From positions 11,762-75,761 of the forward strand of contig CAYVZI010000001.1 in NCBI GenBank assembly GCA_964456475.1: a stretch of 64,000 nucleotides of DNA, written 5' to 3'. A program made the translations under genes and the position numbers. The DNA comes from an uncultured Candidatus Saccharibacteria bacterium. GTDB taxonomy: Bacteria > Patescibacteriota > Minisyncoccia > Phycocordibacterales > UBA9973. Positions within the stretch are counted from its first letter, which is position 1. Every line of letters starts with the position of its first letter. Below the pieces are notes generated by a model. That model was given only the letters and a program-made list of their open reading frames with translations. It was not told where the DNA came from and made no database searches. Shown here piece by piece: positions 1,347 through 62,433 of this stretch.

Positions 1347-1456
1347 AGGTGCTAGCTTCTAGGGTCTAGGTTCTGGAAACTAAATTTGAGCATCAAGAAA
1401 AACAGCACACTTGTGCTGTTTTTCTACTAAACCCTAATCCCTAGACCCTAACCCCT
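1347..1456. repeat. CTAGG/TTAGGG-type palindromic element wrapping an intrinsic terminator
   Basis: G-arm ggtgctagcttctagggtctaggttctgg at 1347-1375. Inverse C-arm aaaccctaatccctagaccctaacccc at 1430-1456. Hairpin aaaaacagcacacttgtgctgttttt lies between them. Confidence 0.7.
1397..1426 (+). terminator. Rho-independent terminator after the S41 peptidase gene
   Basis: Stem cagcacac/gtgtgctg followed by a T-run. Confidence 0.75.
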
Positions 1457-3614: not shown

Positions 3615-4541
3615 TTGTCTGAGACAAAAACAATGGAAAGATCATCAATCATCAGTACAGTCACACTCGTGTTCGTAGTAATTACGATGGTTTTTCTTTT
3701 GAAAACGAACACAGTTCCAAGTATTCTTCTACCCGAGAAGACCACAGAGAATACAGTGCCTATATTGCAACTCCCTGTAGCTGTTAAAAAGATTGAATCA
3801 CCAATTGTACTACCGGGAGGACTCAAGAAGACAAGTGAATCTGATGCAAATAATACACAAGTGCTGCCAGCTGATTATGTTCTCACACGTGCAGGTGTAA
3901 TTTCCGAGACGAACCTGCATCGTGTTAAGTATGGAAAACAAACGTTAGTTGAGAACAAAAAACTTGATAGCTCTGCTCAAGCAAAGGCTGATGATTTACT
4001 CAAACGACAATACTTCGCACACGAAGCACCAGATGGAACAGCAATTGATGACCTGGTTCGTGAACAAGATTACAGCTATATCAAAATCGGAGAGAATCTT
4101 GCTCTCGGGAATTTTTTGAGCAACGCTGATGTAGTCACTGCATGGATGAATAGTCCAGGGCATCGAACAAATATTCTTGATGGTCAGTATACTGAAATTG
4201 GTATTGGGGTCGCTCGAGGTCTCTATGAAGGCCATATGGTATATTTTGCGGTTCAACACTTCGGACGACCAAGATCGTCATGTCCGAGCATAGAGTCAAA
4301 TTTAAAATCACAATTTACAATTGCACAAAAGTATTTGGATGAACTTATCATTTCGATCAATACCCTAAAAGGTGCGATCGACCAGGGGAGCGGGAACAAT
4401 GATGACCTAAATACCCTAATTGAAAAATACAACGCATCAGTGCTTCTTTATAAAGAAGCTTTTCAGAAAGCTGACTCACTCCGCACAAAATATAATGCTG
4501 AGGTTGCTGCATATAATGCTTGCTTAACTGGTGCTCAATAA
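3615..4541 (+). CDS. CAP/SCP (PR-1-like, YkwD-type) domain protein, membrane anchored
   Basis: Motifs HRVKYGKQTL, AQAKADDLL, ENLALG and NSPGHRTNILDGQYTEIGIGV are typical of the CAP domain. N-terminal TM helix. Confidence 0.8.
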   Translation: MSETKTMERSSIISTVTLVFVVITMVFLLKTNTVPSILLPEKTTENTVPILQLPVAVKKIESPIVLPGGLKKTSESDANNTQVLPADYVLTRAGVISETNLHRVKYGKQTLVENKKLDSSAQAKADDLLKRQYFAHEAPDGTAIDDLVREQDYSYIKIGENLALGNFLSNADVVTAWMNSPGHRTNILDGQYTEIGIGVARGLYEGHMVYFAVQHFGRPRSSCPSIESNLKSQFTIAQKYLDELIISINTLKGAIDQGSGNNDDLNTLIEKYNASVLLYKEAFQKADSLRTKYNAEVAAYNACLTGAQ

Positions 4542-4740
4542 TAAGGTAAATGATGAGGGGGGGGGCACCACTTGATGACAAAGTAGTGTCCTTATTTGTC
4601 TGTGTGGAAAACTATATGGTAATGTCGCACAATATATCTTTCACGACATTATATCCTAATATAATGTGCGTGAAAGATAGCGATTATTTTCCAACGTGAT
4701 TACACATCGGAAAATAATCTTTGGGCCGTAGACCCACACT

Positions 4741-4769
4741 GTCATTCCGGACTTGATACGGAATCCATG
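4741..4769 (+). repeat. hairpin element family GTCATyCCGGA-loop-TCCGGrATCCA, copy A
   Basis: gtcattccggacttgatacggaatccatg. The stem is attccg/cggaat. Confidence 0.7.
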
Positions 4770-4844
4770 AATGTATTCTCCCCTCGATGCCTGCCACAAA
4801 TTTTTTCAAAAAAGTTTTCAAAATTATTTTCTTACAAAAATTGT

Positions 4845-4875
4845 GTCATCCCGGACCCTGATCCGGGATCCATGG
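4845..4875 (+). repeat. hairpin element family, copy B
   Basis: gtcatcccggaccctgatccgggatccatgg. The stem atcccgga/tccgggat shows a compensatory change relative to copy A. Confidence 0.7.
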
Positions 4876-5130
4876 GTATCTGAGTTACATCTATGTGACT
4901 CCTTATATGCCTCTCATATATCAAATGGCCTTAAAACGCATTATACGAGATCAAAAATACGAGTTTAGCATCATTATCGACTTGATCCGATAATCCAGTA
5001 ATTTTCTAGTGTTAAAGCATTTTTTACTAATTAGGGTGAGTTGATGGTAGGTACCGTCAATGCAAGACCTTGAGTATTCTGTAATCAGAAAGCGAACGGT
5101 GTACAGTTCCTGTTAGGAAGTCGACTTCCC

Positions 5131-5175
5131 TTTTTAAAAAATAAAAAACGCCCCATACTTTCGGGGCGTTTTATG
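5131..5175 (-). terminator. intrinsic terminator of the 5193..6461 gene
   Basis: aaaacgccccatactttcggggcgtttt with a T-run on the minus strand. Confidence 0.8.
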
Positions 5176-5192
5176 TTTGATAGGTTTTTATC

Positions 5193-6461
5193 CTACGATT
5201 TCACTTGCTTCAACAAATCATCGATACTAACGGTTTCGATGGTGATTTTGCCGTTGTGACCGGTAAAAATTTTCCATACACCATCAGAAGGAACTATTGA
5301 ATACTTCCCTTTGAACTTTAAAACTAATAAATCCTTCATTTCATTAAAAGCCAATTTCTTGGCTGTATCTAAAACTTCAGGCCTTACAATATTTTTCAGT
5401 TTAGGCGTAAGCAATTCAGTAACTTCAGCTGTAACGTCGTCATGTATCTCATCTTTCATCGTGTTACGCAGGTTGTTTTCAAAGGTAAGTGCATAATCCT
5501 TTTCCCACTGTGGTTTACGACGGTTAACAATCTCTTCTTCATCAGGAATAAGAGACTTGCCGTATTCGTGCAAAAATGCAACTTTTTCGGCACCGCTTAG
5601 GTTTTCATAAGCAAGCCGAGCCATTTGCATAGCTGGTGAATTTGGCGTAGCAACAGGCTCGGATACGATTGATACAACAACAGGTTGCACTGCTGTCGGC
5701 TTTGGAGTCGAACTTTCAGGTGCGGGAGTGACTTTCTCTTCTGCTGTATTTTTATCTCCAGGTTTACCATTGGACGTATTGTCCTCAGTGCCACCTTTTG
5801 ATTTCTGTTCCTCCTCAATTTTGGCTTTTGGTGGAAAACAATCTGCACTTATGACATCATTGAAATAGACTGAGTAGTCTTCCTCATTTGGCAATTCGAC
5901 AAGAGTCACTGTTGCTTTACTACCCACGTACGCATTAAAACCGCATTCGAGTAAATAGAACAATGTGCGCTCTCCTTGAAGCTTGCTACAGTTGTAAACC
6001 GTGGCGATACACTTGGCCACAGACTCTTCGTTAGCAAATTTTACATCACTACAATGCAATCCACTTCTTAGGCCAGCCTTCCTCAATAGTGATTTGAGTG
6101 AATCAAGGCGTATTTTAGGATCGATTGTAATGGTTTCGCTTCCGTTTTCATGATCAGCAGACTTTTCTTCACCGTAAGTGGTTAAAAAAGTTTCTGTCTC
6201 GTCACTTACTTTGAATTTAAATACGAGAGTACCGCTTGTACGTTTATCTTCGCACGTCATATACTTATCGTACTTTAACATGTGATCCTTTATTCTATTA
6301 AATAAGCCATTGTCACTACCTTTGACTATTAGAATGGGATAAGCAACCGTGCTGTTGCCATTCTGTGTCTGTGAAGTAAACGATGTACTTATTTTTCGAA
6401 TCTCCTTTTTTACTGCGTCCAAAAAGAAGTGTGCTTTCGTTCTGCAAAGATCTGTTACCAT
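5193..6461 (-). CDS. hypothetical protein with central low-complexity K/E/T/P-rich linker
   Basis: 422-aa ORF bounded by a terminator. No recognisable motif. Confidence 0.6.
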   Translation of the reverse strand: MVTDLCRTKAHFFLDAVKKEIRKISTSFTSQTQNGNSTVAYPILIVKGSDNGLFNRIKDHMLKYDKYMTCEDKRTSGTLVFKFKVSDETETFLTTYGEEKSADHENGSETITIDPKIRLDSLKSLLRKAGLRSGLHCSDVKFANEESVAKCIATVYNCSKLQGERTLFYLLECGFNAYVGSKATVTLVELPNEEDYSVYFNDVISADCFPPKAKIEEEQKSKGGTEDNTSNGKPGDKNTAEEKVTPAPESSTPKPTAVQPVVVSIVSEPVATPNSPAMQMARLAYENLSGAEKVAFLHEYGKSLIPDEEEIVNRRKPQWEKDYALTFENNLRNTMKDEIHDDVTAEVTELLTPKLKNIVRPEVLDTAKKLAFNEMKDLLVLKFKGKYSIVPSDGVWKIFTGHNGKITIETVSIDDLLKQVKS

Positions 6462-19776: not shown

Positions 19777-19808
19777 CTAGCGCCTAAAGCCTAGAGCCTA
19801 ACGCCTAG
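19777..19808. repeat. CTAGG-type element, single C-arm
   Basis: ctagcgcctaaagcctagagcctaacgcctag, preceded by the hairpin cccctccttggtaaaggagggg. Confidence 0.6.
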
Positions 19809-21076
19809 TTCTTCGGCAAATACAACATCGGATCAAGATAAGCGTTCAGCGCTGCCACAGGTGCTGTATACATTTTTCCATTACAAGCTTTACTTGGGAA
19901 ACTCTGAATACTTCCCGCGTCAGCTGCGATGATTGTGAGATGCAAATGCGGGCCAGTAGCGTACCCGGTAGAACCTGAATATCCCACAAGATCACCAGTG
20001 GAAACGCGTGTTCCATCGCCGACTTTTATCAACGACATGTGACCATAAAGGCTCGAGAGACCATTGTCGTATTTTATATAGATCCATTTTCCATATGAGG
20101 CCTTCGGACATGTGAGGTCTGTGTTTCCTGAACCTACGACCACACCAGAAGCCATGGCTTTGAGTGGTGTACCAATAGAAATACCAAAATCGATTCCATT
20201 GTGTGTTCCACTCGAATAGAGGCGTTTTGCGTCAACAGTGCGTCCAAAATGTTGCGTAATTTTTACATTATTAACAGGCCAAATGAGTGGACTGGAACCA
20301 GCCGGAGGGAGTGATTTTGGATCAAGCACGTACCTAAGTTTGGATTCATAATCGCGCAAATCCCCTTCCATTTGATTCTTGAGTGCAATCTTATTGGCAA
20401 GAAGTTTCTGGTATGCTTTCTCGCTGCTTTTTGTTGAAGCAAGGAGTGAATTTTTTTGAGCTTGTGTCTGCACGGTAATCGCACGCTGGTCTTTGAGTTC
20501 TGAATTGAGAGAAATTAATGTTTTCTTTGTTGTTTCTACTTCCGCCTTTTTTGTTTTGAGCACCTGGCCAGTTGTTATGAGTTGATTTGTCCTCTCGCGA
20601 ACTCCTTCTCGAAATGATTCGAGTTCACTTGCATACCGCCACGCATCAGAAAAATTTCGCATTGATGCAAGAGCTCCTACGTCTGAATGATCCTGGGCGT
20701 TCATCTCGCGAATGCTTTTGCCAAGTGCTGTTTTGAGATCATCAATCGACTCGTTTGTATTGGCAATCGTATTTCCAAGCAGGTCGATTTTGGCACTTGT
20801 TGCAGAAATCTTTGCCTCAGAAGCTTTGATGCTTGTGCTGAGTTTTTGTGCTTCAACAGTAAGACGCTTAATCGCATTTGAAAGTGTGTTCTTGTCGTTG
20901 CCAATAACAGTCAACTGATTTTGATACTGAGCAATTTCGGCATTCAGTGCTTCAAGTGCTTTGTTTTGATTGTCGATCTTCGTCTGGAGTTCGGAAGCAG
21001 TATCAGCACGAAGTACTGATGGAATGGCGATCAAGAGAGACAAACAAAAAAGAGTGAGAAATATGTTTCTTCGCAT
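19805..21076 (-). CDS. M23 (LytM) family peptidoglycan endopeptidase with N-terminal coiled-coil (EnvC-like)
   Basis: Signal peptide, a long coiled-coil, and a C-terminal M23 domain ...HNGIDFG...GHMS...HLHL. Confidence 0.85.
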   Translation of the reverse strand: MRRNIFLTLFCLSLLIAIPSVLRADTASELQTKIDNQNKALEALNAEIAQYQNQLTVIGNDKNTLSNAIKRLTVEAQKLSTSIKASEAKISATSAKIDLLGNTIANTNESIDDLKTALGKSIREMNAQDHSDVGALASMRNFSDAWRYASELESFREGVRERTNQLITTGQVLKTKKAEVETTKKTLISLNSELKDQRAITVQTQAQKNSLLASTKSSEKAYQKLLANKIALKNQMEGDLRDYESKLRYVLDPKSLPPAGSSPLIWPVNNVKITQHFGRTVDAKRLYSSGTHNGIDFGISIGTPLKAMASGVVVGSGNTDLTCPKASYGKWIYIKYDNGLSSLYGHMSLIKVGDGTRVSTGDLVGYSGSTGYATGPHLHLTIIAADAGSIQSFPSKACNGKMYTAPVAALNAYLDPMLYLPKN

Positions 21077-21099
21077 ACTCCTATTATACTATGAATTTT

Positions 21100-21128
21100 G
21101 TCATCCCGGACTTGATCCGGGATCCACA
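21100..21128 (+). repeat. hairpin element family, copy C
   Basis: gtcatcccggacttgatccgggatccac. Confidence 0.7.
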
Positions 21129-21140
21129 TAAATTAATTCT

Positions 21141-21199
21141 TCATGGATTCCGGCTCTGACTCAGCAGAATCACTTCTTGGAAGAAAACACGGAATGACA
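21141..21199 (-). repeat. hairpin element family, inverted copy with a ~38-nt expanded loop
   Basis: catggattccg[gctctgactcagcagaatcacttcttggaagaaaacac]ggaatgac. The arms are the reverse complement of copy A. Confidence 0.55.
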
Positions 21200-21205
21200 C
21201 AAAAA

Positions 21206-22555
21206 CTAAAGCATTTTGAGAGCAGCCCCAATACGCTTGAGAGCTTCTTCTTTCCCTATAATACTCGCGATTGTAAATGGATCAGGTGATTTTTCTAGAC
21301 CAGAGAGTGAATAACGCAACGGATGTAAGAATGGTCCGCGTTTTGGGAGCGTGTCTGCATACTGCATAAGGTCAGCCTTAATTTGCTCGATGTTCCAAAC
21401 TGAAACCGATTCAAGAATTTCCTTTGCTTTTGTAAGCAAAACCACCATTTCCTCAGTATTCGAACCCTTGAAAATAATTTTCTCTTTTTCGATTCTTGGA
21501 GCGACGAAGAAGAAATCAAGTTCTCCTGTCTCAGCCATAGTTGTCACATCATTAAATTTTTCAATACGATCGATGATTACAGGTATGAGCATATCCAACT
21601 TGTCGACGTCAAAACCTGGTGATTTTTTGAATGAATCTGGAAGGTATTTTACAATCCATTCCTTCTGCAGTTCTGGAGAAAGTTTGCGAATATATTCTTT
21701 GTTGAGCCAGTTGAGCTTTTCTACATTGAATACTCCAGGACTCTTTTGTACACGCTCAATACTGAACGTACGAACGAGTTCGTCGAGTGAGAATATTTCT
21801 TGTTCTGTTCCAGGATTCCAACCGATGAGAGCCATGAAATTGATGAGTGCTTCTGGGAGATAGCCCTGCTCGCGATAATGACGCACAGAAACACTCTCAC
21901 CATGCTTTCGCTTGGAAAGTTTCTGTTTGTCAGGAGCAAGAATGAGAGGAATGTGTGCGAATTTTGGCTCAGGTTTGCCGAGTGCTCGGTACAGCAATAT
22001 CTGTCGCGGAGTGTTTGAAACATGATCTTGTCCACGAATCACATGAGTGATACCTGCCTCACAATCATCAACAACCACTGCAAAGTTGTAGAGTGGAGTA
22101 TCAAAGTCTTTTGCAATTACAAAGTCACCAAGGTCAGACGTGTCAACGGTAATGTCTCCAAGAATCAAATCATGAAAAGTAACTGTCTCATTGGTGTTCT
22201 TGTAACGAATCAGATTACGCATGACACCTGCTTCTTCTTTGGATTCTTCACTGGATATGTACGCCTTGCCGTCATCAATAAGTTGCTGAAGAAACACCTT
22301 GTGATTGTCGAGATGCTCGCTCTGACGAAAAAATGCATCGTAGGTAATACCGAGCCATTCAAGCATTGCAAGAATATCATCCTCGTACTCTTTCTTTGAG
22401 CGAATTTTGTCAGTATCCTCGATACGCAAAAGATACTTGCCATCGTTTTGACGAGCAAAAAGATAACAAAAGAGCGCCGTACGAAGCGTGCCCATATGAA
22501 AATATCCTGTCGGAGACGGTGCGATTCGAGTGATGACTAACCCTGCTGTATTCAT
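21206..22555 (-). CDS. gltX: glutamyl-tRNA synthetase
   Basis: HIGH-type APSPTGYFHMGTLRTALF and KLSKR (KMSKS). Confidence 0.9.
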   Translation of the reverse strand: MNTAGLVITRIAPSPTGYFHMGTLRTALFCYLFARQNDGKYLLRIEDTDKIRSKKEYEDDILAMLEWLGITYDAFFRQSEHLDNHKVFLQQLIDDGKAYISSEESKEEAGVMRNLIRYKNTNETVTFHDLILGDITVDTSDLGDFVIAKDFDTPLYNFAVVVDDCEAGITHVIRGQDHVSNTPRQILLYRALGKPEPKFAHIPLILAPDKQKLSKRKHGESVSVRHYREQGYLPEALINFMALIGWNPGTEQEIFSLDELVRTFSIERVQKSPGVFNVEKLNWLNKEYIRKLSPELQKEWIVKYLPDSFKKSPGFDVDKLDMLIPVIIDRIEKFNDVTTMAETGELDFFFVAPRIEKEKIIFKGSNTEEMVVLLTKAKEILESVSVWNIEQIKADLMQYADTLPKRGPFLHPLRYSLSGLEKSPDPFTIASIIGKEEALKRIGAALKML

Positions 22556-36475: not shown

Positions 36476-36543
36476 TTGTTTAATTTACCACAACTCGAGA
36501 ATTTGTGGAATTTTTTAGGATTTAGAGTTTAAGATTTAGAATT

Positions 36544-36584
36544 TCCACCTTTGGATAATTTATTTAAATTTATCCAAAGGTGGA
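36544..36584. terminator. 15-bp perfect palindrome hairpin
   Basis: tccacctttggataa-tttatttaaat-ttatccaaaggtgga. Confidence 0.6.
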
Positions 36585-39524: not shown

Positions 39525-39530
39525 ATTTCA

Positions 39531-39606
39531 GGGTTTAGGTGCTAGGGTTTAGGGGTTAGCAATTCGCACTCACTATACCCTAAACGCTATACCCTATACC
39601 CTAGCT
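39531..39606. repeat. CTAGG/TTAGGG-type palindromic element (G-arm, 16-nt spacer, C-arm)
   Basis: gggtttaggtgctagggtttaggggttagc ... ccctaaacgctataccctataccctagc. Confidence 0.7.
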
Positions 39607-40789: not shown

Positions 40790-40862
40790 TGGCTATTTTT
40801 TTATGTTTTAAATGAAGTTTTACATTATATATACTATCATAGATTGATATATATGTCAATAG

Positions 40863-40888
40863 CCCTGGATCCTGGATCGAGTCCGGGG
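40863..40888 (-). repeat. hairpin element family, degenerate copy
   Basis: The reverse strand reads ccccggactcgatccaggatccaggg. Confidence 0.5.
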
Positions 40889-40898
40889 CTTGTGCATA

Positions 40899-42670: not shown

Positions 42671-42763
42671 ATATGAAGATAGTATACAGTATTTAGTATA
42701 CGGTATACAGTATTTCACAGTTTTATACTGTATACAAAATACAACATACTGTATACTGTATCC
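42671..42763. promoter_or_regulatory. divergent mntH/corA control region with five or six iterated ATAC-N-GTAT palindromes
   Basis: gtatacagtat at about 42682 and 42703, the variant gtatacggtat at 42696, and atactgtatac at 42725 and 42747-42757. Confidence 0.55.
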
Positions 42764-43675
42764 ATGATTTCACGTTACGCACATCAAGGGCTTACTTGGA
42801 TCGACCTCGAATCACCAACCCGTGATGAGGTTTCCGTTCTTTCAGAAGAATTTGAACTGCATCCGATCATTTCGAGTGAATTACTTGAAACATCTGAACG
42901 CGCAAAAGTGGATTTGTATGAGAATGCAATATATCTCATTCTGCATTTTCCAATTCGCAACCGCACTACAGGACATATCCAGGAGACAGAGATCGACTTT
43001 GTGCTTCTCAAAAATACTCTTATTACCACACACTACGAGCTTGTTGACCCACTTCACGATTTCGCCCGATTATTTGAAGTAGACAGCTTCTTGAGTAGCT
43101 CAAAACTCACTGAACACACCGGGTTCCTATTCTTTACTCAAATCCGCGAATTATATAAGCACACACTCTTTCTAGTTGAAGGATTGACTCACGATATTCG
43201 CGAGATTGAAAAGCAAATCTTCGCAGGTAAAGAAAGCGAGATGGTGATGGAAATATCAAAAGCCAATCGAGAAATAATAGATATCAAACAAGCACTTCGC
43301 GCTCACAAAGAAACGCTAAAATCCTTTGCAGACACATGCATCAAGATATATGGCCAAGATTTTTCTTACTATATCAATATGATTGAAGGTGAATATGCTC
43401 GTATCGAACAGATACTTTCGGAAAATCGCGATATGATTCACGATCTTCGTCGCACAAACGACTCCTTGCTTTCAGTCAAGACAAACAATACCCTTCGCTG
43501 GCTTGCGGCTGTCAACGTAGTACTTATGCCAATCGGTATTATTGCTTGGATTTTTGCTATGCAATCTCGATTCCTCTATCTAGATGAACCACATCAGCTT
43601 CTAACCGCTTTTGGTATAATGATTGCAATACCAGTCATTTTGATTATCTATTTCCGCCGAAAAAAGTGGCTCTAG
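42764..43675 (+). CDS. CorA-like divalent cation transporter (divergent, with FAMQ in place of the canonical YGMN)
   Basis: CorA-like length, a cytoplasmic domain followed by 2 C-terminal TM helices, and a KKW tail. Confidence 0.65.
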   Translation: MISRYAHQGLTWIDLESPTRDEVSVLSEEFELHPIISSELLETSERAKVDLYENAIYLILHFPIRNRTTGHIQETEIDFVLLKNTLITTHYELVDPLHDFARLFEVDSFLSSSKLTEHTGFLFFTQIRELYKHTLFLVEGLTHDIREIEKQIFAGKESEMVMEISKANREIIDIKQALRAHKETLKSFADTCIKIYGQDFSYYINMIEGEYARIEQILSENRDMIHDLRRTNDSLLSVKTNNTLRWLAAVNVVLMPIGIIAWIFAMQSRFLYLDEPHQLLTAFGIMIAIPVILIIYFRRKKWL

Positions 43676-43682
43676 TGAGCCT

Positions 43683-43710
43683 GGTCATCCTGAACTTGTT
43701 TCAGAATCCA
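43683..43710 (+). repeat. hairpin element family, copy F
   Basis: ggtcatcctgaacttgtttcagaatcca, which closely resembles the GIY-YIG cassette ends. Confidence 0.65.
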
Positions 43711-48267: not shown

Positions 48268-48762
48268 TTGAAAACAGGTTCGCGACTCGGAAGAATTCTC
48301 TTAGGGATAGGAGCTTTTCTTGCAACGAGTGGTTTCAGCTACTCGTTTGATTATTTTGTTTACCCGATTGTTACCTATTATTTCGGGTTCTCAAAAAGTT
48401 TAATTATTTTATTTCTCGCTGCGCTTATCATGAATTATTTCGTTGTACTTTTGTACGATCTGTTCAAAAAAGATTTTTTTGGATTTGAGGCACTTAAGGA
48501 AATGAAGGAGTCAGGTAACGGCAGAGGTATGATGTACAGAATAATGAAATGGGGCGATATTCCCTTCTTTATCTTTCTTTCATGGTACGACCCAATATTT
48601 GCGGTTTTATACAAAAGGAGGAGTAAAAGCTTTAACGGCTTTAGAAGGAGAGATTATTTTATTCTTGTGCTTAGTACATTAATTGGGTGTATTATCTGGT
48701 CAGGATTTTGGTCAGCAGGTATTGAATTTGTTAAATACATATTTCCACAATGGTTCTCCTAG
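48268..48762 (+). CDS. hypothetical membrane protein (TTG start)
   Basis: 4 predicted TM helices. Its 3' end is duplicated at 50530-50660. Confidence 0.5.
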   Translation: MKTGSRLGRILLGIGAFLATSGFSYSFDYFVYPIVTYYFGFSKSLIILFLAALIMNYFVVLLYDLFKKDFFGFEALKEMKESGNGRGMMYRIMKWGDIPFFIFLSWYDPIFAVLYKRRSKSFNGFRRRDYFILVLSTLIGCIIWSGFWSAGIEFVKYIFPQWFS

Positions 48763-48822
48763 CAATAGCGAGAGCCATTTTTTTATCCTATTTTTAAACA
48801 ATAATGAGAGTCCCTCGTTTCG
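48693..48822 (+). repeat. direct repeat copy 1 (~130 bp; 3' end of the 48268 gene plus 60 bp downstream)
   Basis: About 97% identical to 50530-50660. Confidence 0.85.
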
Positions 48823-49015: not shown

Positions 49016-49579
49016 ATGGGACTTATTGAAATAAAGGGAAAGAGGCTAACCTTGAGAGAAATTTCAAAAGATGATCTGCCCCAATTACTCCTTTGGAGAA
49101 ATTCGGAAATCTTTCAAAAATCATGTCTTTCCTACTCGAAAGACTGCACAATTGAAGAACTTGACAGAGAAATTGACATTTCATATCGTCAAGATAAATA
49201 TGCTCAATTTATTGCTTGGACATCAGACGACAAGCCAGTAGGTACGAACTGGATATATCGATACCACAAAACAAATGGCATAGGATTTACCACAACATTT
49301 GTTGATGAGCAATACAGACAAAGTCATTATTATGCGATTGAAATGTTCGCACTCATTTGCAAATATATGTTTAACGAACTTGCTTGTCGAAAGATTTACT
49401 CAGAAGTTCACGCTGGGAATACTCCTTCAATGAATATCTTCAACAAACTTAATCTTCCTCTTGAAGCGACATTTAAGAATCACTCAAAAGTGGGTTTGAA
49501 CGATTTCGAGGATCTGTTGGTTTACGCCTTGTACAAAGAAGCCTTTGAATCCATGAATATTCCAAAAAAACTTTTGTGA
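49016..49579 (+). CDS. GNAT family N-acetyltransferase (RimJ/RimL-like)
   Basis: GNAT fold pattern including the motif A region. Confidence 0.7.
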   Translation: MGLIEIKGKRLTLREISKDDLPQLLLWRNSEIFQKSCLSYSKDCTIEELDREIDISYRQDKYAQFIAWTSDDKPVGTNWIYRYHKTNGIGFTTTFVDEQYRQSHYYAIEMFALICKYMFNELACRKIYSEVHAGNTPSMNIFNKLNLPLEATFKNHSKVGLNDFEDLLVYALYKEAFESMNIPKKLL

Positions 49580-49612: not shown

Positions 49613-49846
49613 CATTTTGAGAATTAAACCTTTCGGGATTGAAAAATATTTCGGTTGAGCTTCTGGGTGTTTTTTGTTTGTATGAATATTTAGTGTCTCC
49701 TCGTTTTCTACTATAATATAATCGGCACTTTCTTTGACGAGAGTGCCAATAGTTTTCATCTGACTTGGAGTGCTAATTTCCTCATTCGAGGAATACATGA
49801 ATATATCGTTCCAATATATTGTTACTTGCTGATTATTCTTTATCAT
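49604..49846 (-). CDS. small protein, paralog B of a tandem pair
   Basis: 80 aa. It shares the pattern TIyW.D...P...G.li.E.......KK......IP...ii..K with the upstream ORF. Confidence 0.5.
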   Translation of the reverse strand: MIKNNQQVTIYWNDIFMYSSNEEISTPSQMKTIGTLVKESADYIIVENEETLNIHTNKKHPEAQPKYFSIPKGLILKMEY

Positions 49847-50110
49847 AAAAATCTATCTTTTTAAACTCAATAATTGCATTTTCAGGAATGATAAAGCCAT
49901 TAGTGGGAACCATACTTTTCTTTTCTTTGTCATAGTGAACACTGCATGCAATATTCGTCCATTGTTCGTTTGTCTCTATAATGAAGCCACAGGTCAAATT
50001 AATCTTTGGAGTTTCATTCTCGAGTGCCTGTATATCATCAGTATATGCAGCATCCCGCCAGAGAATAGTACAAATAGGATTTTTATAATTTATGTTTTTT
50101 GTAGCCATGT
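49833..50110 (-). CDS. small protein, paralog A of the tandem pair (trimmed to MATKNINYK)
   Basis: About 92 aa. The ORF-track N-terminal His-rich extension overlaps another frame and was rejected. Confidence 0.45.
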
Positions 50111-50172
50111 AAATAAAATGTAAAAAGTGCAGTAATATTATACCACACTTTTTATTTTTGTAGTGACACGGA

Positions 50173-50382
50173 TTATTTTCCGCTACTACTGCCACCACTA
50201 CTGCTATGTGATGATGACGAATTACTGGATGAATTATTACTCGACGATGCCTTGTGGGCAGCTCTTTCTGGTAATTCACCAGATTTTTGTGCATGATCAC
50301 GTGCATCATGCCAAGCAGACGATACTTCCCTTGTTGAGGAATTGGTATCTCGTGCTGCATCAGATTTAGTATATTCTGACAA
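50173..50382 (-). CDS. small hydrophilic protein with Ser-rich C-terminal tail
   Basis: TTG start preceded by AAGGAGGA at 7 nt, and a TTGACA-N16-TAAAAT promoter about 60 bp upstream. Confidence 0.5.
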   Translation of the reverse strand: MSEYTKSDAARDTNSSTREVSSAWHDARDHAQKSGELPERAAHKASSSNNSSSNSSSSHSSSGGSSSGK

Positions 50383-50529
50383 GTCTATATCCTCCTTTTC
50401 AAGCCTAGTTTTATTCCTGAAAACCTTCCGGAACCTTGCTTAATTATATTTTACTATAATAGGAAAGGTTGTCAATGAAAATACTCATATTCAGTGACTT
50501 AAATAAATAAGTACTGCCACAGGCTGTCT

Positions 50530-50660
50530 TATCTGGTCAGGATTTTGGTCAGCAGGTATTGAATTTGTTAAATACATATTTCCACAATGGTTCTCCTAGC
50601 AATAGCGAGAGCCATTTTTTTATCCTATTTTTTAAACAATAATGAGAATCCCTCGTTTCG
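50530..50660 (+). repeat. direct repeat copy 2 (non-coding remnant of the 48268 gene 3' end)
   Basis: Same as copy 1 apart from 3 differences. It has no start codon. Confidence 0.85.
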
Positions 50661-54057: not shown

Positions 54058-54124
54058 ACGCCGTGCATAATACTATGAATAATAAAATGCGACAAGAAAT
54101 TGGATGATTCCCCTCACTCGTATT

Positions 54125-54475
54125 GGGTCATCCTGAATTTATTTCAGGATCCAGGGCTATAGACAAATCTTTCCATTCTGGATTATGCTCTTGTATCAAA
54201 TTAATCTTCCAATTTCTATGCCATGCTTTTAATTGTTTTTCGCGTTCAATCGCAGAAATTGGATTTTCAGACTCTTCATAATAAACCAGAGTATTAATTT
54301 TATATTGCTTTGTAAATCCGCCTGCAAGACTATGTTTGTGCTCATATATGCGACGGATTAAATCATTTGTAACACCTATGTATAAAGTGCCGTTCTTTTT
54401 GTTTGCCAAAATATAAACATAATAATGTTTATCGTACATACAAATACTGGATCCTGAAATAAATTCAGGATGACC
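54125..54475. mobile_element. 351-bp cassette with perfect 30-bp terminal inverted repeats enclosing a GIY-YIG nuclease gene
   Basis: Left end gggtcatcctgaatttatttcaggatccag (54125-54154). Right end is its exact reverse complement (54446-54475). Each end is itself an 8-bp-stem hairpin. Confidence 0.6.
54128..54439 (-). CDS. small GIY-YIG nuclease superfamily protein (COG2827-like)
   Basis: MYDKHYYVYILANKKNGTLYIGVTNDLIRRIYEHK...REKQLKAWHRNWKINLI. The ORF-track N- and C-terminal residues are translated from the inverted repeats, so the start was trimmed to MYDK. Confidence 0.75.
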   Translation of the reverse strand: MYDKHYYVYILANKKNGTLYIGVTNDLIRRIYEHKHSLAGGFTKQYKINTLVYYEESENPISAIEREKQLKAWHRNWKINLIQEHNPEWKDLSIALDPEINSG

Positions 54476-54488
54476 CAAACACACATAT

Positions 54489-55916: not shown

Positions 55917-55920
55917 AGTA

Positions 55921-55988
55921 GGGTTTAGGTTTTAGGTGTTAGGGTTTAGTAATTCGAATTGTATTTCTAAATCCTAGACCCTAACCCC
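55921..55988. repeat. CTAGG/TTAGGG-type palindromic element
   Basis: gggtttaggttttaggtgttagggtttag-N17-ctaaatcctagaccctaacccc. Confidence 0.7.
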
Positions 55989-55990
55989 TG

Positions 55991-56995
55991 TTATTTTAGG
56001 TATTTCTTAATATTTGCGAGGTGTTCGGCGTAGGTTTTCGCGTAATGGATAGTACCATTTTTGTCATGAAGATAATAGAGGTACGGTGTTGTGCTGTAAT
56101 TCACTGCAGCAGTCAATGCATCAAGGCCTGGATTGGATATCGGAGCCGGTGGAAGCCCCTTGTGGAGATAGGTATTAAAGGGCGAAACTACAGAAAAATC
56201 AGCTTTCTTGAGTGGTCCATTTGGCTTATTCACTGCATAAGCCACAGTAGCATCTACCTGCAGTCTCATACCTTTTGCAAGACGACTCCACAAAATACTC
56301 GAGATAATTGTTCGGTCTCCGACTCCTCGAGCCTCTTTCTCGATGATTGAAGCCATGATAACAATTTCTTGTTTTGTATGATTTCCCATTGAATCAGCTG
56401 AAAATAGATTCTTTGTCTTTAAATCAAACATTGCTCTCATTTCATCAACGATGTCAGATGGTTTTGTTTTTGAATAAATAAAATAAGTTTCTGGAAAAAG
56501 ATATCCTTCATGTGCTTTTGCTGAAAGCAAAAAATCTTCGGTGGCAAAATCAGAAATTTTTTCGGAAAGAATCTCGCTCATTTCCAAAACCGAAGTACCT
56601 TCCGGAATTGTAATCTTTATCGGTTTCAAATTGTGCACGCCAAAGGCGATTTGGCGTGCGACTGCAAATACTGAAATCGGTCGGTCGAAGAAATAATCGC
56701 CCGGAGGAACCTTCATATCCTTACCATAAAAAGTTACGAGCGTAGAAAAGAGTGCACGTGACCGAATATACTGTTTGTTCGACAATTCTGTGCCAACACT
56801 CTTCAGGCTCTGTCCGGGTGTTATCGTAAAGACTGTCTCACCTTCTGGAAAATCTGACGGGGCCGACAACGCAAAAACAAAAACGGCAATTACCGCAATA
56901 ACACCAAACACTCGACCGAGCCGATTCCGCTTTTGCGGAATCGGCTCGAGAGCTGTATTTTCTTCTGTATTCAGAACTGAATTATCTGACTCCAT
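55991..56995 (-). CDS. mltG: endolytic murein transglycosylase MltG (YceG-like)
   Basis: N-terminal TM helix and a YceG domain pattern. Confidence 0.8.
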   Translation of the reverse strand: MESDNSVLNTEENTALEPIPQKRNRLGRVFGVIAVIAVFVFALSAPSDFPEGETVFTITPGQSLKSVGTELSNKQYIRSRALFSTLVTFYGKDMKVPPGDYFFDRPISVFAVARQIAFGVHNLKPIKITIPEGTSVLEMSEILSEKISDFATEDFLLSAKAHEGYLFPETYFIYSKTKPSDIVDEMRAMFDLKTKNLFSADSMGNHTKQEIVIMASIIEKEARGVGDRTIISSILWSRLAKGMRLQVDATVAYAVNKPNGPLKKADFSVVSPFNTYLHKGLPPAPISNPGLDALTAAVNYSTTPYLYYLHDKNGTIHYAKTYAEHLANIKKYLK

Positions 56996-58365: not shown

Positions 58366-58412
58366 ATATACAAGTATACTCTAGTAAAACTCTAAATCCA
58401 AAACTCTAAATA

Positions 58413-58904
58413 CTAAAATTGGACTGGCACTGCATAGACGAGCCCTGTTGTACTCACAAACACGATTTTTCCCATATCAGTTGAAGGTGGAGTCAATAGC
58501 ATGAGATCATTTCCGAAATACATTGGATATCCATCTGTGGTATTCGGTACAACAAGGTCAGATGGTTTTGTTATCGGCATTCCCATGTCATCGAATACTT
58601 GTGCTGTTCCAGCAATAGCATATCCACCTGGAGTACCTCCGTACATCCAACCACACTGATTGATATATCCCGACACTTTCACGGGAAAAACTATTTTCGT
58701 ATTCGAATCAGGTTTTTGCACAGTGAGACCACACGGCAAACGAAGTAATGACTTTATGTTGAATGAATCCCAAAGAACTCTTTCATCCTTGAAGAACCCA
58801 GAGAAAATGAATGCCAAAAAAATAAGTATTGCAATAACTGCAATAAAGTTTACTCCGCCCTCGCCACGTTCGTGTATCATTAAAACATTATAGCAATAAA
58901 TCAT
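58413..58904 (-). CDS. hypothetical membrane-anchored protein
   Basis: TM helix IAVIAILIFLAFIF followed by a ~120-aa beta-rich domain. Confidence 0.5.
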   Translation of the reverse strand: MIYCYNVLMIHERGEGGVNFIAVIAILIFLAFIFSGFFKDERVLWDSFNIKSLLRLPCGLTVQKPDSNTKIVFPVKVSGYINQCGWMYGGTPGGYAIAGTAQVFDDMGMPITKPSDLVVPNTTDGYPMYFGNDLMLLTPPSTDMGKIVFVSTTGLVYAVPVQF

Positions 58905-62023: not shown

Positions 62024-62029
62024 AAGAAG

Positions 62030-62058
62030 GTTCTAGGATCTAGCTTCTAGGTTCTAGT
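62030..62058. repeat. CTAGG-type element arm overlapping the 3' end of the four-helix-bundle gene
   Basis: ggttctaggatctagcttctaggttctag. Confidence 0.65.
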
Positions 62059-62390
62059 TTAATAATCATAACTCGCAACATTTTGCTTACTTCTTCGAGT
62101 AATTCAAGGTGTGACTGAATACTTAATGAATACAAATCTCGACAAAGAAATAATTGAGTCTCAAGCTCTGAAGCGGAGCCATATGATAAGCACAAAAAAT
62201 GTGCGTAATCTTTTCGAGTCTTACGACTTGAACCTTCTGCAATATTCGAGATGATTGAAACACTGGCTCTCCTCATCTGAGACTGAAGAGCATATATTTC
62301 CATTTGAGGAAGTTGAATTTGATAGACAAGCTTAGTAAGATCATAAGCCTTTTTCCAAACTGTCAGATCTTTATACGAATTAAGTGACAT
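62040..62390 (-). CDS. four-helix-bundle protein (23S rRNA intervening-sequence protein family, TIGR02436-like)
   Basis: YKDLTVWKKAYDLTKLVY...LQSQMRRASVSIISNIAEGSSRKTRKDYAHFL..GSASELETQL matches the family consensus. Confidence 0.8.
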   Translation of the reverse strand: MSLNSYKDLTVWKKAYDLTKLVYQIQLPQMEIYALQSQMRRASVSIISNIAEGSSRKTRKDYAHFLCLSYGSASELETQLFLCRDLYSLSIQSHLELLEEVSKMLRVMIIKLEPRS

Positions 62391-62398
62391 TTTGTATT

Positions 62399-62433
62399 CT
62401 CTAGAACCTAGACCCTAGAAACTAGCACCTAGT
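62399..62433. repeat. CTAGG-type element arm just upstream of the four-helix-bundle gene
   Basis: tctagaacctagaccctagaaactagcacctag, inverse to 62030-62058. Confidence 0.65.

What the first reader, a model, noticed from the sequence alone, without database searches (positions are those of the whole stretch)
4741..4875. Dispersed ~30-nt hairpin element family with compensatory stem changes (two copies here)
Two copies lie in a 650-bp ORF-free region: gtcattccggacttgatacggaatccatg at 4741 and gtcatcccggaccctgatccgggatccatgg at 4845. Further copies are at 21100, 21141 (inverted, with a 38-nt loop insertion), 40863, 43683, and both ends of the GIY-YIG cassette. The conserved tips are GTCATCC and GGATCCA. 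The stems differ between copies (attccg/cggaat versus atcccgga/tccgggat versus atcctgaa/ttcaggat), but every copy still pairs. That pattern points to selection on structure, which suggests a REP/MITE-like element or a structured RNA motif rather than chance terminators.
Basis: seen in the sequence. Interest (0 to 1): 0.7.

Follow-up and report, generated by a model that had tools for sequence, protein, structure and literature searches.

The report
Ssn nuclease hairpin repeats (SRM)
The dispersed ~28-nt hairpins are real; they are the DNA recognition motifs (SRM/NTS-type repeats) of the small GIY-YIG single-strand DNA nuclease Ssn encoded in the same window, a system first described in 2025, so this is a new instance of a known kind and not a new element or RNA.

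Summary
Six oriented hairpins (GTCAT-stem-loop-stem-ATCCA) lie at 4741, 4845, 21100, 43684, 54127 and 54448(-), against 0.01 expected by chance. There are also three degenerate or derived copies (4968, 21142-21200, 40853-40892). All solo copies are intergenic.

Two identical inverted copies flank a 103-aa single-domain GIY-YIG gene (54128-54439, minus strand). That protein is 56.5% identical (E 1e-24) to the Neisseria gonorrhoeae ssnA locus and keeps the catalytic Tyr/Tyr/Glu.

In 80 homologous loci from many phyla, the gene is flanked by the same kind of hairpin: 63/81 have at least one and 50/81 at least two. The tips are conserved and the stems are compensated. A covariance model built only from those foreign hairpins recovers exactly the six window copies.

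This is the Ssn/SRM system of Chenal et al. 2025 (Nat Commun 16:2388). Ssn binds the hairpin as single-stranded DNA, not as dsDNA or RNA, and cuts a few nucleotides upstream.

Points beyond that paper:
- The host is Patescibacteria-like.
- Four of the six copies escape the published SRM search string.
- The SRM-ssn-SRM cassette is present or absent at the gatB-dnaJ site among close relatives.
- Gene-less doublets share the cassette's tips-out geometry.

Verdict: real, and a new member of a known kind. Its role in this organism is untested.

The parts
4741..4767 (+). Solo SRM hairpin. GTC + stem ATTCCGGA/TACGGAAT (1 mismatch) + loop CTTGA + CCA.
   Evidence: Covariance model R1 scores 30.5 bits, E 5.5e-6. 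Intergenic.
4845..4872 (+). Solo SRM hairpin with perfect 8-bp stem ATCCCGGA. One of only two window copies that match the published SRM search string.
   Evidence: R1 scores 29.2 bits, E 1.3e-5.
4968..4998 (+). Decayed SRM (ATCATTATCGACTTGATCCGATAATCCAG). The GTC tip is mutated to ATC and the stem is bulged. A probable positional orthologue exists in a distant relative (L086 9202-9227).
   Evidence: R1 scores only 9.3 bits, E 3.3.
21100..21126 (+). SRM hairpin, the best-scoring copy. It is the left half of a gene-less 'tips-out' doublet between the M23 peptidase gene and gltX.
   Evidence: R1 scores 39.6 bits, E 1.9e-8.
21142..21200 (-). Long-loop SRM (GTCATTCCG - ~37-nt loop - CGGAATCCATG). 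It is the right half of the doublet. The same architecture occurs at a different site in relative L084 (4735-4790).
   Evidence: The L084 counterpart scores 27.7 bits with R1. The window copy itself is not recovered by R1.
40853..40892 (-). Relic of a second ssn cassette. The + strand carries the last codons of an ssn gene (…SIALDP…), and a degenerate SRM follows whose motif reads on the - strand.
   Evidence: I7 (84% match to 54145-54176). Also.
43684..43710 (+). Solo SRM hairpin (stem ATCCTGAA, 1 mismatch) in the 55-bp corA-cysS spacer.
   Evidence: R1 scores 25.3 bits, E 1.4e-4.
54123..54154 (+). SRM and terminal inverted repeat at the 3' end of ssn. The hairpin encodes the protein's tail DPEINSG and its TGA stop codon. 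The GTC tip points away from the gene.
   Evidence: I4 (32-nt arms, 100% complementary). R1 scores 27.3 bits.
54128..54439 (-). ssn gene: a 103-aa single-domain GIY-YIG nuclease of the Ssn family, inserted between gatB and dnaJ.
   Evidence: Pfam PF01541, E 1.3e-16, residues 6-80. 56.5% identity, E 1e-24 to the N. gonorrhoeae ssnA locus. Y9, Y20 and E67 are invariant.
54447..54478 (-). SRM and terminal inverted repeat upstream of ssn, identical to the downstream copy. The GTC tip points away from the gene.
   Evidence: I4. R1 scores 27.3 bits. Logan contig L001 ends 39 bp past the gatB stop, which by my coordinate arithmetic falls inside this repeat.

Best explanation
The hairpins are Ssn-related motifs (SRM, the general form of the Neisseria NTS/dRS3-type repeat). 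The 103-aa GIY-YIG protein at 54128-54439 is their cognate Ssn nuclease.

Mechanism, taken from characterised homologues and inferred here: when DNA is single-stranded (incoming transforming DNA, replication or repair intermediates), the motif folds into a hairpin. Ssn binds it in one orientation, reading the stem sequence and the C just 3' of the palindrome, and cuts the strand a few nucleotides 5' of the GTC tip. It does not act on duplex DNA, on RNA, or on the complementary strand.

In the window's cassette both GTC tips point outward. The predicted cuts therefore fall just outside each end, on opposite strands. This step is inferred.

The SRM-ssn-SRM unit behaves as a discrete, gain/loss-prone cassette. 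The solo hairpins and the gene-less doublet are its dispersed binding sites, by analogy with REP/REPIN and RAYT.

Shown here: family membership, motif-gene association, orientation, intergenic location and cassette polymorphism. Not shown: any biochemical activity, or the biological role in this organism.
For: 1. The motif family is real and oriented: 6 hits versus 0.01 expected.
2. A covariance model built only from hairpins next to ssn homologues in other genomes finds exactly these six, at E 2e-8 to 1e-4. The reverse strand scores only 11-12 bits.
3. The flanked gene is a single-domain GIY-YIG. It is 56.5% identical, E 1e-24, to the N. gonorrhoeae ssnA locus, which sits among 11 NTS copies in 3.2 kb. 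Window Y9/Y20/E67 correspond to Nm SsnA Y6/Y17/E64.
4. The association is general. Across 80 loci from many phyla plus the window itself (81 sequences), 63 have at least one strict hairpin within 150 bp of the gene and 50 have at least two. The orientation is predominantly tips-out: 55 vs 20 upstream and 62 vs 21 downstream.
5. A test that does not presuppose pairing: of 121 distinct tip-only matches near ssn genes, 84 have at least 5 of 6 unconstrained inner positions paired, against a chance expectation of about 0.5%. Stem positions 3 and 5-8 each show 3-4 Watson-Crick pair types.
6. Many homologues end in hairpin-encoded tails such as DPEINSG, DPETSSG and GDAETSSA.
7. Published biochemistry and genetics for four homologues: PMC11893778.
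8. The cassette is a unit. It is filled at gatB-dnaJ in the window, L091 and L083, and empty in L092, L082 and L084/85. In L020, homology between paralogous cassettes ends within ~7 bp of the TIR boundaries. In L053 it ends at the boundary on one side and inside the TIR on the other.
Against: - Only 2 of the 6 window copies match the published degenerate SRM string, because its V position excludes the T of the ATCCTGAA stems. That includes neither of the copies flanking the window's own ssn.
- The window holds one ssn gene but at least three stem classes (ATCCTGAA, ATCCCGGA, ATTCCGGA). Nm SsnA, by contrast, is reported to be sequence-specific for its stem. One enzyme may not serve all copies.
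- The Neisseria ssnA locus has the nearest NTS copies in tips-in orientation, opposite to the window. The geometry is therefore not a fixed property of the system.
- No biochemical or expression evidence exists for this organism.
- The cd10448 assignment used by the paper could not be checked.
Confidence: 0.88

Rival explanations
1. The SRM-ssn-SRM cassette is an autonomous mobile element, with a GIY-YIG ssDNA nuclease acting as its 'transposase' or homing enzyme. The solo hairpins and gene-less doublets are its non-autonomous derivatives or footprints (a REPIN/RAYT or IS200/IS605 analogue), not host-serving sites. This extends the best explanation and does not exclude it.
For: - Perfect 32-nt TIRs in the window (I4).
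- Presence/absence of the cassette at one site among relatives with 82-98% identical GatB.
- A relic of a second cassette at 40853-40892.
- In L020, paralogous cassettes share homology only TIR-to-TIR, within ~7 bp of the TIR boundaries. In L053 it stops at the boundary on one side and inside the TIR on the other. L054 is similar.
- Tight gene-less doublets prefer the cassette's tips-out geometry: 41 vs 12 tips-in vs 8 direct.
- The same long-loop doublet architecture occurs at unrelated sites in the window and in L084.
- Ssn is 55-67% identical across phyla. GatB is only about 70% identical to the named Patescibacteria hits.
- The paper raises this idea as a hypothesis only.
Against: - On any one strand the cassette carries only one forward (cleavable) motif. 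The two same-strand cuts that IS200/IS605-type excision needs are not available.
- GIY-YIG enzymes hydrolyse DNA and are not known to form the covalent intermediates needed for strand transfer (established knowledge).
- The filled-versus-empty comparison shows no clean boundaries or target-site duplication. About 20-25 nt on each side also differ, which fits deletion as well as insertion.
- There are no matches in 50,697 phage records, and the plasmid hits are mostly chromids or mis-filed chromosomes.
Confidence: 0.3
2. The hairpins act at the RNA level, as a structured cis-regulatory or mRNA-stabilising motif or as weak terminators.
For: - Compensated stems and intergenic location.
- The copy at 43684 lies within a 55-bp spacer between co-directional genes, so it is almost certainly transcribed.
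- REP elements in E. coli are known to stabilise upstream mRNA (established knowledge).
Against: - No Rfam family matches at gathering score, or at E<=10 over 4500-5250.
- No T-tails, and none of the copies is flagged as a terminator.
- Orientation relative to neighbouring genes is mixed. 21100 is antisense to both flanking genes, and the two cassette copies are opposite to each other.
- The motif co-occurs with a DNA nuclease gene across phyla.
- SsnA does not bind the motif as RNA.
Confidence: 0.05
3. Classical REP elements mobilised by a RAYT (HUH-Y1 transposase), or MITEs derived from an IS element.
For: They are short, dispersed, intergenic palindromes, some in inverted doublets.
Against: - The gene flanked by the repeats is a GIY-YIG, not a Y1 transposase.
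- The conserved tip is GTC, not the REP GTAG.
- Solo copies share no sequence beyond the hairpin and show no TIR or TSD.
- None of the 20 window ORFs scanned against Pfam matched a transposase. Most ORFs were not scanned.
Confidence: 0.03

Closest known systems
Ssn nucleases and Ssn-related motifs (SRM); Neisseria SsnA/NTS (Chenal et al. 2025, Nat Commun 16:2388, PMC11893778)
   Same: - The protein is a small single-domain GIY-YIG with the same catalytic Tyr/Tyr/Glu, 56.5% identical to the gonococcal ssnA locus.
- The hairpin is oriented and has the same anatomy: GTC 5' of the palindrome, stem starting AT and ending AT, then C.
- The motif flanks the gene on both sides.
- Copies are intergenic and dispersed.
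   Different: - The host is a Patescibacteria-like uncultured bacterium. That phylum is not named in the paper's main text.
- The stems are AT-richer (ATCCTGAA, ATCCCGGA, ATTCCGGA), and 4 of 6 copies escape the published search string.
- The flanking copies are tips-out, whereas the nearest NTS at gonococcal ssnA are tips-in.
- The downstream hairpin supplies the last 7 codons and the stop codon of the gene.
- Activity and role are untested here.
Neisseria dRS3 repeats and NIMEs (ATTCCC-N8-GGGAAT)
   Same: They belong to the same hairpin superfamily. Foreign loci in my set carry the exact NTS core (for example L054 and L068, TGTCATTCCCGCGCAGGCGGGAATC). The same covariance model scores both the gonococcal NTS and the window copies.
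   Different: No window copy has the ATTCCC…GGGAAT core. The window shows no NIME-like repeated spacers between copies.
REP/REPIN elements and RAYT transposases; IS200/IS605
   Same: Short ssDNA-hairpin repeats are recognised by a nuclease whose gene is flanked by inverted copies. There are gene-less inverted doublets and intergenic accumulation.
   Different: - The enzyme fold and chemistry differ: a GIY-YIG hydrolase versus an HUH-Y1 enzyme with a covalent intermediate.
- The tip is GTC, not GTAG.
- The cassette ends are inverted, so only one cleavable motif lies on each strand, unlike the same-strand LE/RE of IS200/IS605.
- Mobility is not demonstrated.

Membership tests
Ssn/SRM system (Chenal et al. 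2025) | Single-domain GIY-YIG protein of about 94-105 aa with no DNA-binding extension | tested here: met
   103 aa. PF01541 covers residues 6-80 and no other Pfam or NCBIfam domain passes its cut-off.
Ssn/SRM system (Chenal et al. 2025) | Homology to Neisseria SsnA (the paper's criterion is E < 1e-10) | tested here: met
   tblastn against the N. gonorrhoeae chromosome (filed in PLSDB as NZ_CP119142.1): 56.5% identity over residues 8-92, E 1e-24. The locus was read.
Ssn/SRM system (Chenal et al. 2025) | Catalytic residues equivalent to Nm SsnA Y6, Y17 and E64 | tested here: met
   Y9, Y20 and E67 are invariant in a 22-sequence alignment. Their spacing (11 and 47) is identical to that in the gonococcal translation and in the paper.
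Ssn/SRM system (Chenal et al. 2025) | [quoted passage not shown] | not testable with these tools
   No CDD library is available. Membership is inferred from the homology above.
Ssn/SRM system (Chenal et al. 2025) | Oriented hairpin motif: conserved GTC 5' of the palindrome and C immediately 3' of it | tested here: met
   Six copies have GTC + 8-bp stem + C. R1 scores the forward strand at 25-40 bits and the reverse strand at 11-12 bits.
Ssn/SRM system (Chenal et al. 2025) | Match to the published degenerate SRM string HGTCWYN(0-2)YYVSBRHN(0-5)WNVSBRGN(0-2)RNCYNB | tested here: inconclusive
   Only 4844-4873 and 21099-21127 match (shuffles average 0.19). The ATCCTGAA and ATTCCGGA stems fail at single positions of a manually derived string. 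A model trained on gene-adjacent hairpins accepts all six.
Ssn/SRM system (Chenal et al. 2025) | Motif copies flank the ssn gene on both sides | tested here: met
   Identical 32-nt inverted arms at 54123-54154 and 54447-54478 (I4). The same holds in 50 of 81 loci.
Ssn/SRM system (Chenal et al. 2025) | Binding and cleavage of the motif as ssDNA only, a few nucleotides upstream; no activity on dsDNA, RNA or the reverse strand | not testable with these tools
   This needs purified protein and oligonucleotides. It is known for four homologues.
Neisseria dRS3 / NTS in the strict sense | Core ATTCCC-N8-GGGAAT (NTS: CGTCATTCCCGCGMAVGCGGGAATCYRG) | tested here: not met
   The window stems are ATTCCGGA, ATCCCGGA and ATCCTGAA. 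The copies are SRMs, not NTS or dRS3.
REP/REPIN-RAYT | Repeats flank a RAYT (IS200/IS605-like HUH-Y1 transposase) gene; REP has a conserved GTAG 5' tetranucleotide | tested here: not met
   The flanked gene is a GIY-YIG and the tip is GTC. The rest of the window was not scanned exhaustively for Y1 transposases.
MITE | An element of about 100-500 bp with terminal inverted repeats and target-site duplication, homologous along its length between copies | tested here: not met
   In the alignment of nine copies with 40-nt flanks, the invariant columns all fall within the 3' half of the ~28-nt hairpin and none in the flanks.
Any Rfam RNA family | Match to a curated covariance model | tested here: not met
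   0 matches at gathering score over the whole window. Nothing overlaps the hairpins at E<=10 over 4500-5250.

The most novel reading that the evidence does not exclude
SRM-ssn-SRM is an autonomous mobile cassette that spreads by a mechanism not yet described for any transposon: a hydrolytic GIY-YIG nuclease nicks folded ssDNA hairpins at the outer edge of each end. Gene-less tips-out SRM doublets, including the recurrent long-loop form at 21100-21200, would be its non-autonomous derivatives. This would be a GIY-YIG counterpart of the REPIN/RAYT relationship, active in reduced Patescibacteria genomes.
Probability: 0.3. Interest if true: 0.75.

Novelty: new member of a known kind. Interest (0 to 1): 0.3.

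Why it matters
As a discovery it adds little. The hairpin/GIY-YIG partnership, its breadth across bacteria and its ssDNA-specific biochemistry were published in 2025.

It matters in three modest ways.
- The system sits in a small Patescibacteria-like genome, carried as a compact 352-bp cassette between housekeeping genes.
- The published search string misses the AT-richer stem classes, including those flanking this ssn gene. Census figures based on that string probably under-count SRMs in low-GC lineages.
- Three observations bear on the question the paper left open, namely whether SRM-ssn-SRM is or was a mobile element and how the repeats multiply: the filled/empty gatB-dnaJ comparison, the cassette relic, and the excess of gene-less tips-out doublets.

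Each distinct stem class is also a candidate new specificity for programmable ssDNA cleavage tools.

Tried and rejected
- **Rfam.** Gathering-score search of the whole window and E<=10 search over 4500-5250 found nothing relevant.
- **First literature search** (GIY-YIG + hairpin + repeats) returned only organelle and generic papers. The decisive paper came from pairing 'GIY-YIG' with 'dRS3', a lead recalled from memory of Neisseria repeats.
- **Solved structures.** No close relative exists. There is only a weak hit to UPF0213 protein BH0048 (1ZG2, E 0.008) and spurious WD-repeat designs.
- **The paper's supplements** are not held, so the Nm SsnA sequence could not be taken from them. It was replaced by the gonococcal locus found by chance in PLSDB.
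- **Phage collection.** No Ssn homologue was found.
- **Decayed ssn gene inside 4540-5200 or 21070-21210.** Low-stringency tblastn gave only hairpin-encoded peptide noise. The three-copy array is not a dead cassette.
- **Target-site duplication or clean insertion boundaries** at gatB-dnaJ. The flanks are too diverged and the indel is not clean.
- **Relatives of the 422-aa neighbour gene.** Only two distant homologues exist. They show one probably orthologous decayed SRM but no informative empty site for 4741 or 4845.
- **Terminator reading.** Rejected by the scan.
- **Stability of individual hairpins.** DNA folding z-scores are unremarkable for several copies (-0.5 to -1.7). The argument rests on family and covariation, not on thermodynamics.
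- **P0003 locus.** Its DNA could not be retrieved.

Full report
**Observation.** The region 4542-5192 is a 651-bp gap between two convergent genes: a CAP-domain gene (3615-4541, +) and an unannotated 422-aa gene (5193-6461, -). Dinucleotide-preserving shuffles give 0.01. The pattern does not demand pairing, yet all six have an 8-bp stem with at most one mismatch, directly preceded by GTC and followed by C. Three stem classes occur: ATTCCGGA, ATCCCGGA and ATCCTGAA.

The reported inverted copy with a large loop is at 21142-20200 region, precisely 21142-21200. The '40863' copy is a degenerate remnant. When nine copies are aligned with 40-nt flanks, the invariant columns lie only within the ~28-nt hairpin (its 3' half) and none in the flanks. 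The elements therefore resemble REP repeats, not MITEs. In a crude gene model with 87% coding sequence, all seven solo copies lie in non-coding DNA. None has a T-tail or is flagged by the terminator scan. Rfam has no match.

**The partner gene.** Two identical copies form perfect 32-nt inverted arms (54123-54154 and 54447-54478; I4). They surround a 103-aa ORF on the minus strand (54128-54439), which lies between gatB and dnaJ. The ORF is a single-domain GIY-YIG protein (PF01541, E 1.3e-16). Its last seven codons (DPEINSG) and its TGA stop are encoded by the downstream hairpin.

The family is very large. All 8000 scored candidates pass E<=0.001, and identity is typically around 65-72%. Many members end in similar hairpin-encoded tails, such as DPETSSG, GDAETSSA and LDSSLRWNDD.

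A scan of one genome per species returned more than 600 matches. The 80 best loci come from Cloacimonadota, Latescibacterota, Saccharibacteria and other Patescibacteria, Alpha-, Beta- and Gammaproteobacteria, Bacteroidota, Omnitrophota, Cyanobacteria, Planctomycetia and others, at 52-67% identity. In most of them the gene is bracketed by inverted hairpins with the same tips, (T)GTCAT(T/C)C … G(A/G)ATCC(A), and with different, self-complementary stems.

With a strict definition (GTC, a stem of at least 8 bp starting with A, at most 1 mismatch, then C), I counted hairpins in these 80 loci plus the window itself, 81 sequences in all. Sixty-three have at least one hairpin within 150 bp of the gene and 50 have at least two. 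The upstream copy is usually forward on the coding strand (55 vs 20). The downstream copy is usually forward on the opposite strand (62 vs 21). The GTC tips therefore point away from the gene, as in the window. The two flanking stems differ in 32 of 44 cassettes.

**Covariation.** Among 194 distinct strict hairpins, stem positions 3, 5, 6, 7 and 8 each show three or four Watson-Crick pair types. On an 83-sequence alignment, 6 of 7 pairs have double-sided changes. Those sets were selected for pairing, so I ran a test that does not presuppose it. It used tip-only matches, which constrain stem pairs 1-2 only. Of 121 distinct matches lying within 150 bp of an ssn gene, 84 have at least 5 of the 6 unconstrained inner positions paired, and the distribution is bimodal. 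Chance expectation is about 0.5%.

A covariance model built solely from hairpins of the other genomes (A4 and R1) was run over the window without filters. It returns exactly the six copies, at 25-40 bits (E 2e-8 to 1e-4). Their reverse strands score only 11-12 bits, and the decayed 4968 copy scores 9.3 bits.

**Identification.** A literature search pairing GIY-YIG with dRS3 found Chenal et al. 2025 (Nat Commun 16:2388, PMC11893778). They report the following:
- About half of the Neisseria dRS3 repeats are a longer oriented hairpin, NTS (CGTCATTCCCGCGMAVGCGGGAATCYRG).
- The only gene family associated with it across bacteria is a 94-aa single-domain GIY-YIG, SsnA (cd10448).
- 71% of homologues have an 'Ssn-related motif' (SRM) nearby, and 42% have one on both sides.
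- SsnA binds the motif only as ssDNA, not as dsDNA, RNA or the reverse strand, and cuts a few nucleotides upstream.
- The three nucleotides 5' of the palindrome govern cutting, and the C 3' of it governs binding.
- The loop is dispensable and can carry extensions.
- Changing the stem sequence while keeping the structure abolishes activity.
- In N. meningitidis the enzyme lowers transformation by NTS-bearing DNA.

The window's anatomy matches this point for point.

Direct homology was tested through a gonococcal chromosome that happens to be filed in the plasmid collection. The result is 56.5% identity, E 1e-24. The gonococcal locus translates to a protein in which Y6, Y17 and E64 align with window Y9, Y20 and E67. 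R1 finds 11 NTS copies in 3.2 kb around it. I therefore file the finding under Ssn/SRM.

**Differences from the published description.**
1. GatB is about 70-73% identical to proteins named Pacebacteria, Paceibacterota, Nomurabacteria or Patescibacteria. The host is therefore a Patescibacteria-like uncultured bacterium, a group not named in the paper's main text.
2. The paper's degenerate SRM string matches only two of the six copies, and neither of the two that flank the window's own ssn. The ATCCTGAA stem has T where the string requires V.
3. At the gonococcal ssnA the nearest NTS copies are tips-in. In the window and in most of my loci they are tips-out.
4. One ssn gene coexists with three stem classes in 64 kb. 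Given the reported stem specificity, this implies either relaxed specificity or further paralogues elsewhere in the genome. It remains unexplained.

**Evidence on cassette dynamics.** This goes beyond the paper's Discussion, which offers mobility only as a hypothesis.
- The gatB-dnaJ spacer is filled by the cassette in the window, in L091 (Ssn 98% identical, same flanks) and in L083 (GatB 88%, Ssn 73%).
- The spacer is an uninterrupted 47 bp in L092 (GatB 96%) and L082 (95%). In L084/L085 (82%) it holds only a terminator-like hairpin.
- The alignment (A3) shows the whole cassette plus about 20-25 nt on each side as the indel. There is no clean junction or target duplication, so an old insertion followed by losses is as likely as repeated insertion.
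- A fragment at 40853-40892 retains '…SIALDP' plus a degenerate hairpin. It is a relic of a second cassette.
- Where a locus carries two or three ssn paralogues (L020, L053, L054), homology between them is confined to the cassette. In L020 it stops within ~7 bp of the TIR boundaries. In L053 it stops at the boundary on one side and inside the TIR on the other.
- Among adjacent hairpins with no gene between them and a gap of at most 60 bp, tips-out pairs outnumber tips-in and direct pairs: 41, 12 and 8.
- The window's doublet (21100-21200) is a forward SRM, then 15 nt, then a reverse SRM of the ATTCCG class with a ~37-nt loop. It has an architectural twin at an unrelated site, between RRF and the M50 peptidase gene, in L084. 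The loop sequence there is unrelated.
- Against a transposon of the IS200/IS605 type: each strand of the cassette carries only one forward motif, and GIY-YIG enzymes are hydrolases.

**Mechanism and confidence.** The hairpins are most likely cognate ssDNA recognition sites of the window's Ssn nuclease (confidence 0.88). Cleavage would fall a few nucleotides 5' of GTC on the motif strand, which for the cassette means just outside each end on opposite strands. That placement is inferred from homologues and is not shown here. The biological role in this organism is open. It could be restriction or modulation of recombination with incoming ssDNA, as in Neisseria, or selfish maintenance and spread. 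RNA-level function, REP/RAYT membership and MITE status are each unlikely, for the reasons given above.

**Verdict.** It is a new member of a known kind, with some useful detail on stem diversity and cassette turnover. Interest 0.3.

Noticed in passing
window 62024-62430 (ORF 62040-62390, minus strand): A second small-gene cassette lies here: a 116-aa 23S_rRNA_IVP / four-helix-bundle protein (PF05635, E 4e-31) flanked by 30-nt CTAG-rich inverted repeats (62028-62057 and 62401-62430). It sits between the RRF and M50 peptidase genes. At the same site, relative L082 has only 4 nt and relative L084 has an SRM doublet. The intergenic slot is therefore occupied by different selfish-looking elements in different relatives.
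   Followed up: partly
window 1347-1456, 19784-19809, 36510-36546, 39530-39566, 55920-55992, 58387-58418, 62028-62057, 62395-62430: A second dispersed intergenic repeat family is made of TAGGGTTTAGG / CTAGAACCTAGA-like units (families D5 and D8, pairs I3, I5, I6, I12 and I13). It is the same kind of sequence that flanks the 23S_rRNA_IVP gene. This may be a repeat/gene partnership parallel to SRM/ssn.
   Followed up: no
window 48685-48798 and 50522-50635: A 114-nt direct repeat at 97% identity brackets about 1.8 kb. That segment holds a GNAT acetyltransferase gene (49016-49579) and an unannotated 175-aa ORF (49833-50360). GC content is lower here (0.37-0.38). It may be a recently acquired or duplicated segment.
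   Followed up: no
window 42673-42765: A 41-nt imperfect palindrome, rich in GTATAC/ATACTGTATAC units, abuts the corA start codon (42764). It looks like an operator or another repeat.
   Followed up: no
window 4555-4566 and 4682-4736: A G9 homopolymer run lies just after the CAP-domain gene stop. A 17-bp-stem hairpin (4682-4719) and a second hairpin (4722-4736) lie immediately 5' of the first SRM. In L084 the SRM doublet also abuts a hairpin (cgtgtgcactcgacacg). SRMs may tend to sit beside pre-existing hairpins.
   Followed up: no
L019 (20 kb, 38 strict hairpins), L016 (14), L044 (12): Some genomes carry very dense SRM arrays around ssn, up to about 2 per kb. Others (for example the Bradyrhizobium loci L036, L041 and L066) show none under the strict definition, although they have TIR-like flanks of a different shape. 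SRM diversity is wider than either my definition or the published string captures.
   Followed up: no
L090 (N. gonorrhoeae NZ_CP119142.1, 1880219-1883473): A 2.17-Mb gonococcal chromosome is filed as a 'plasmid' in PLSDB. In the reading frame of the ssnA homologue I could not see an ATG start immediately upstream (…ATA TGC ACG GTT TAT…). The gonococcal copy may use another start codon or be a pseudogene.
   Followed up: no
window 24000 (approx.): GC skew changes sign from positive to negative around 20-28 kb. This may reflect the gene-strand switch or a replication landmark. It was not examined.
   Followed up: no
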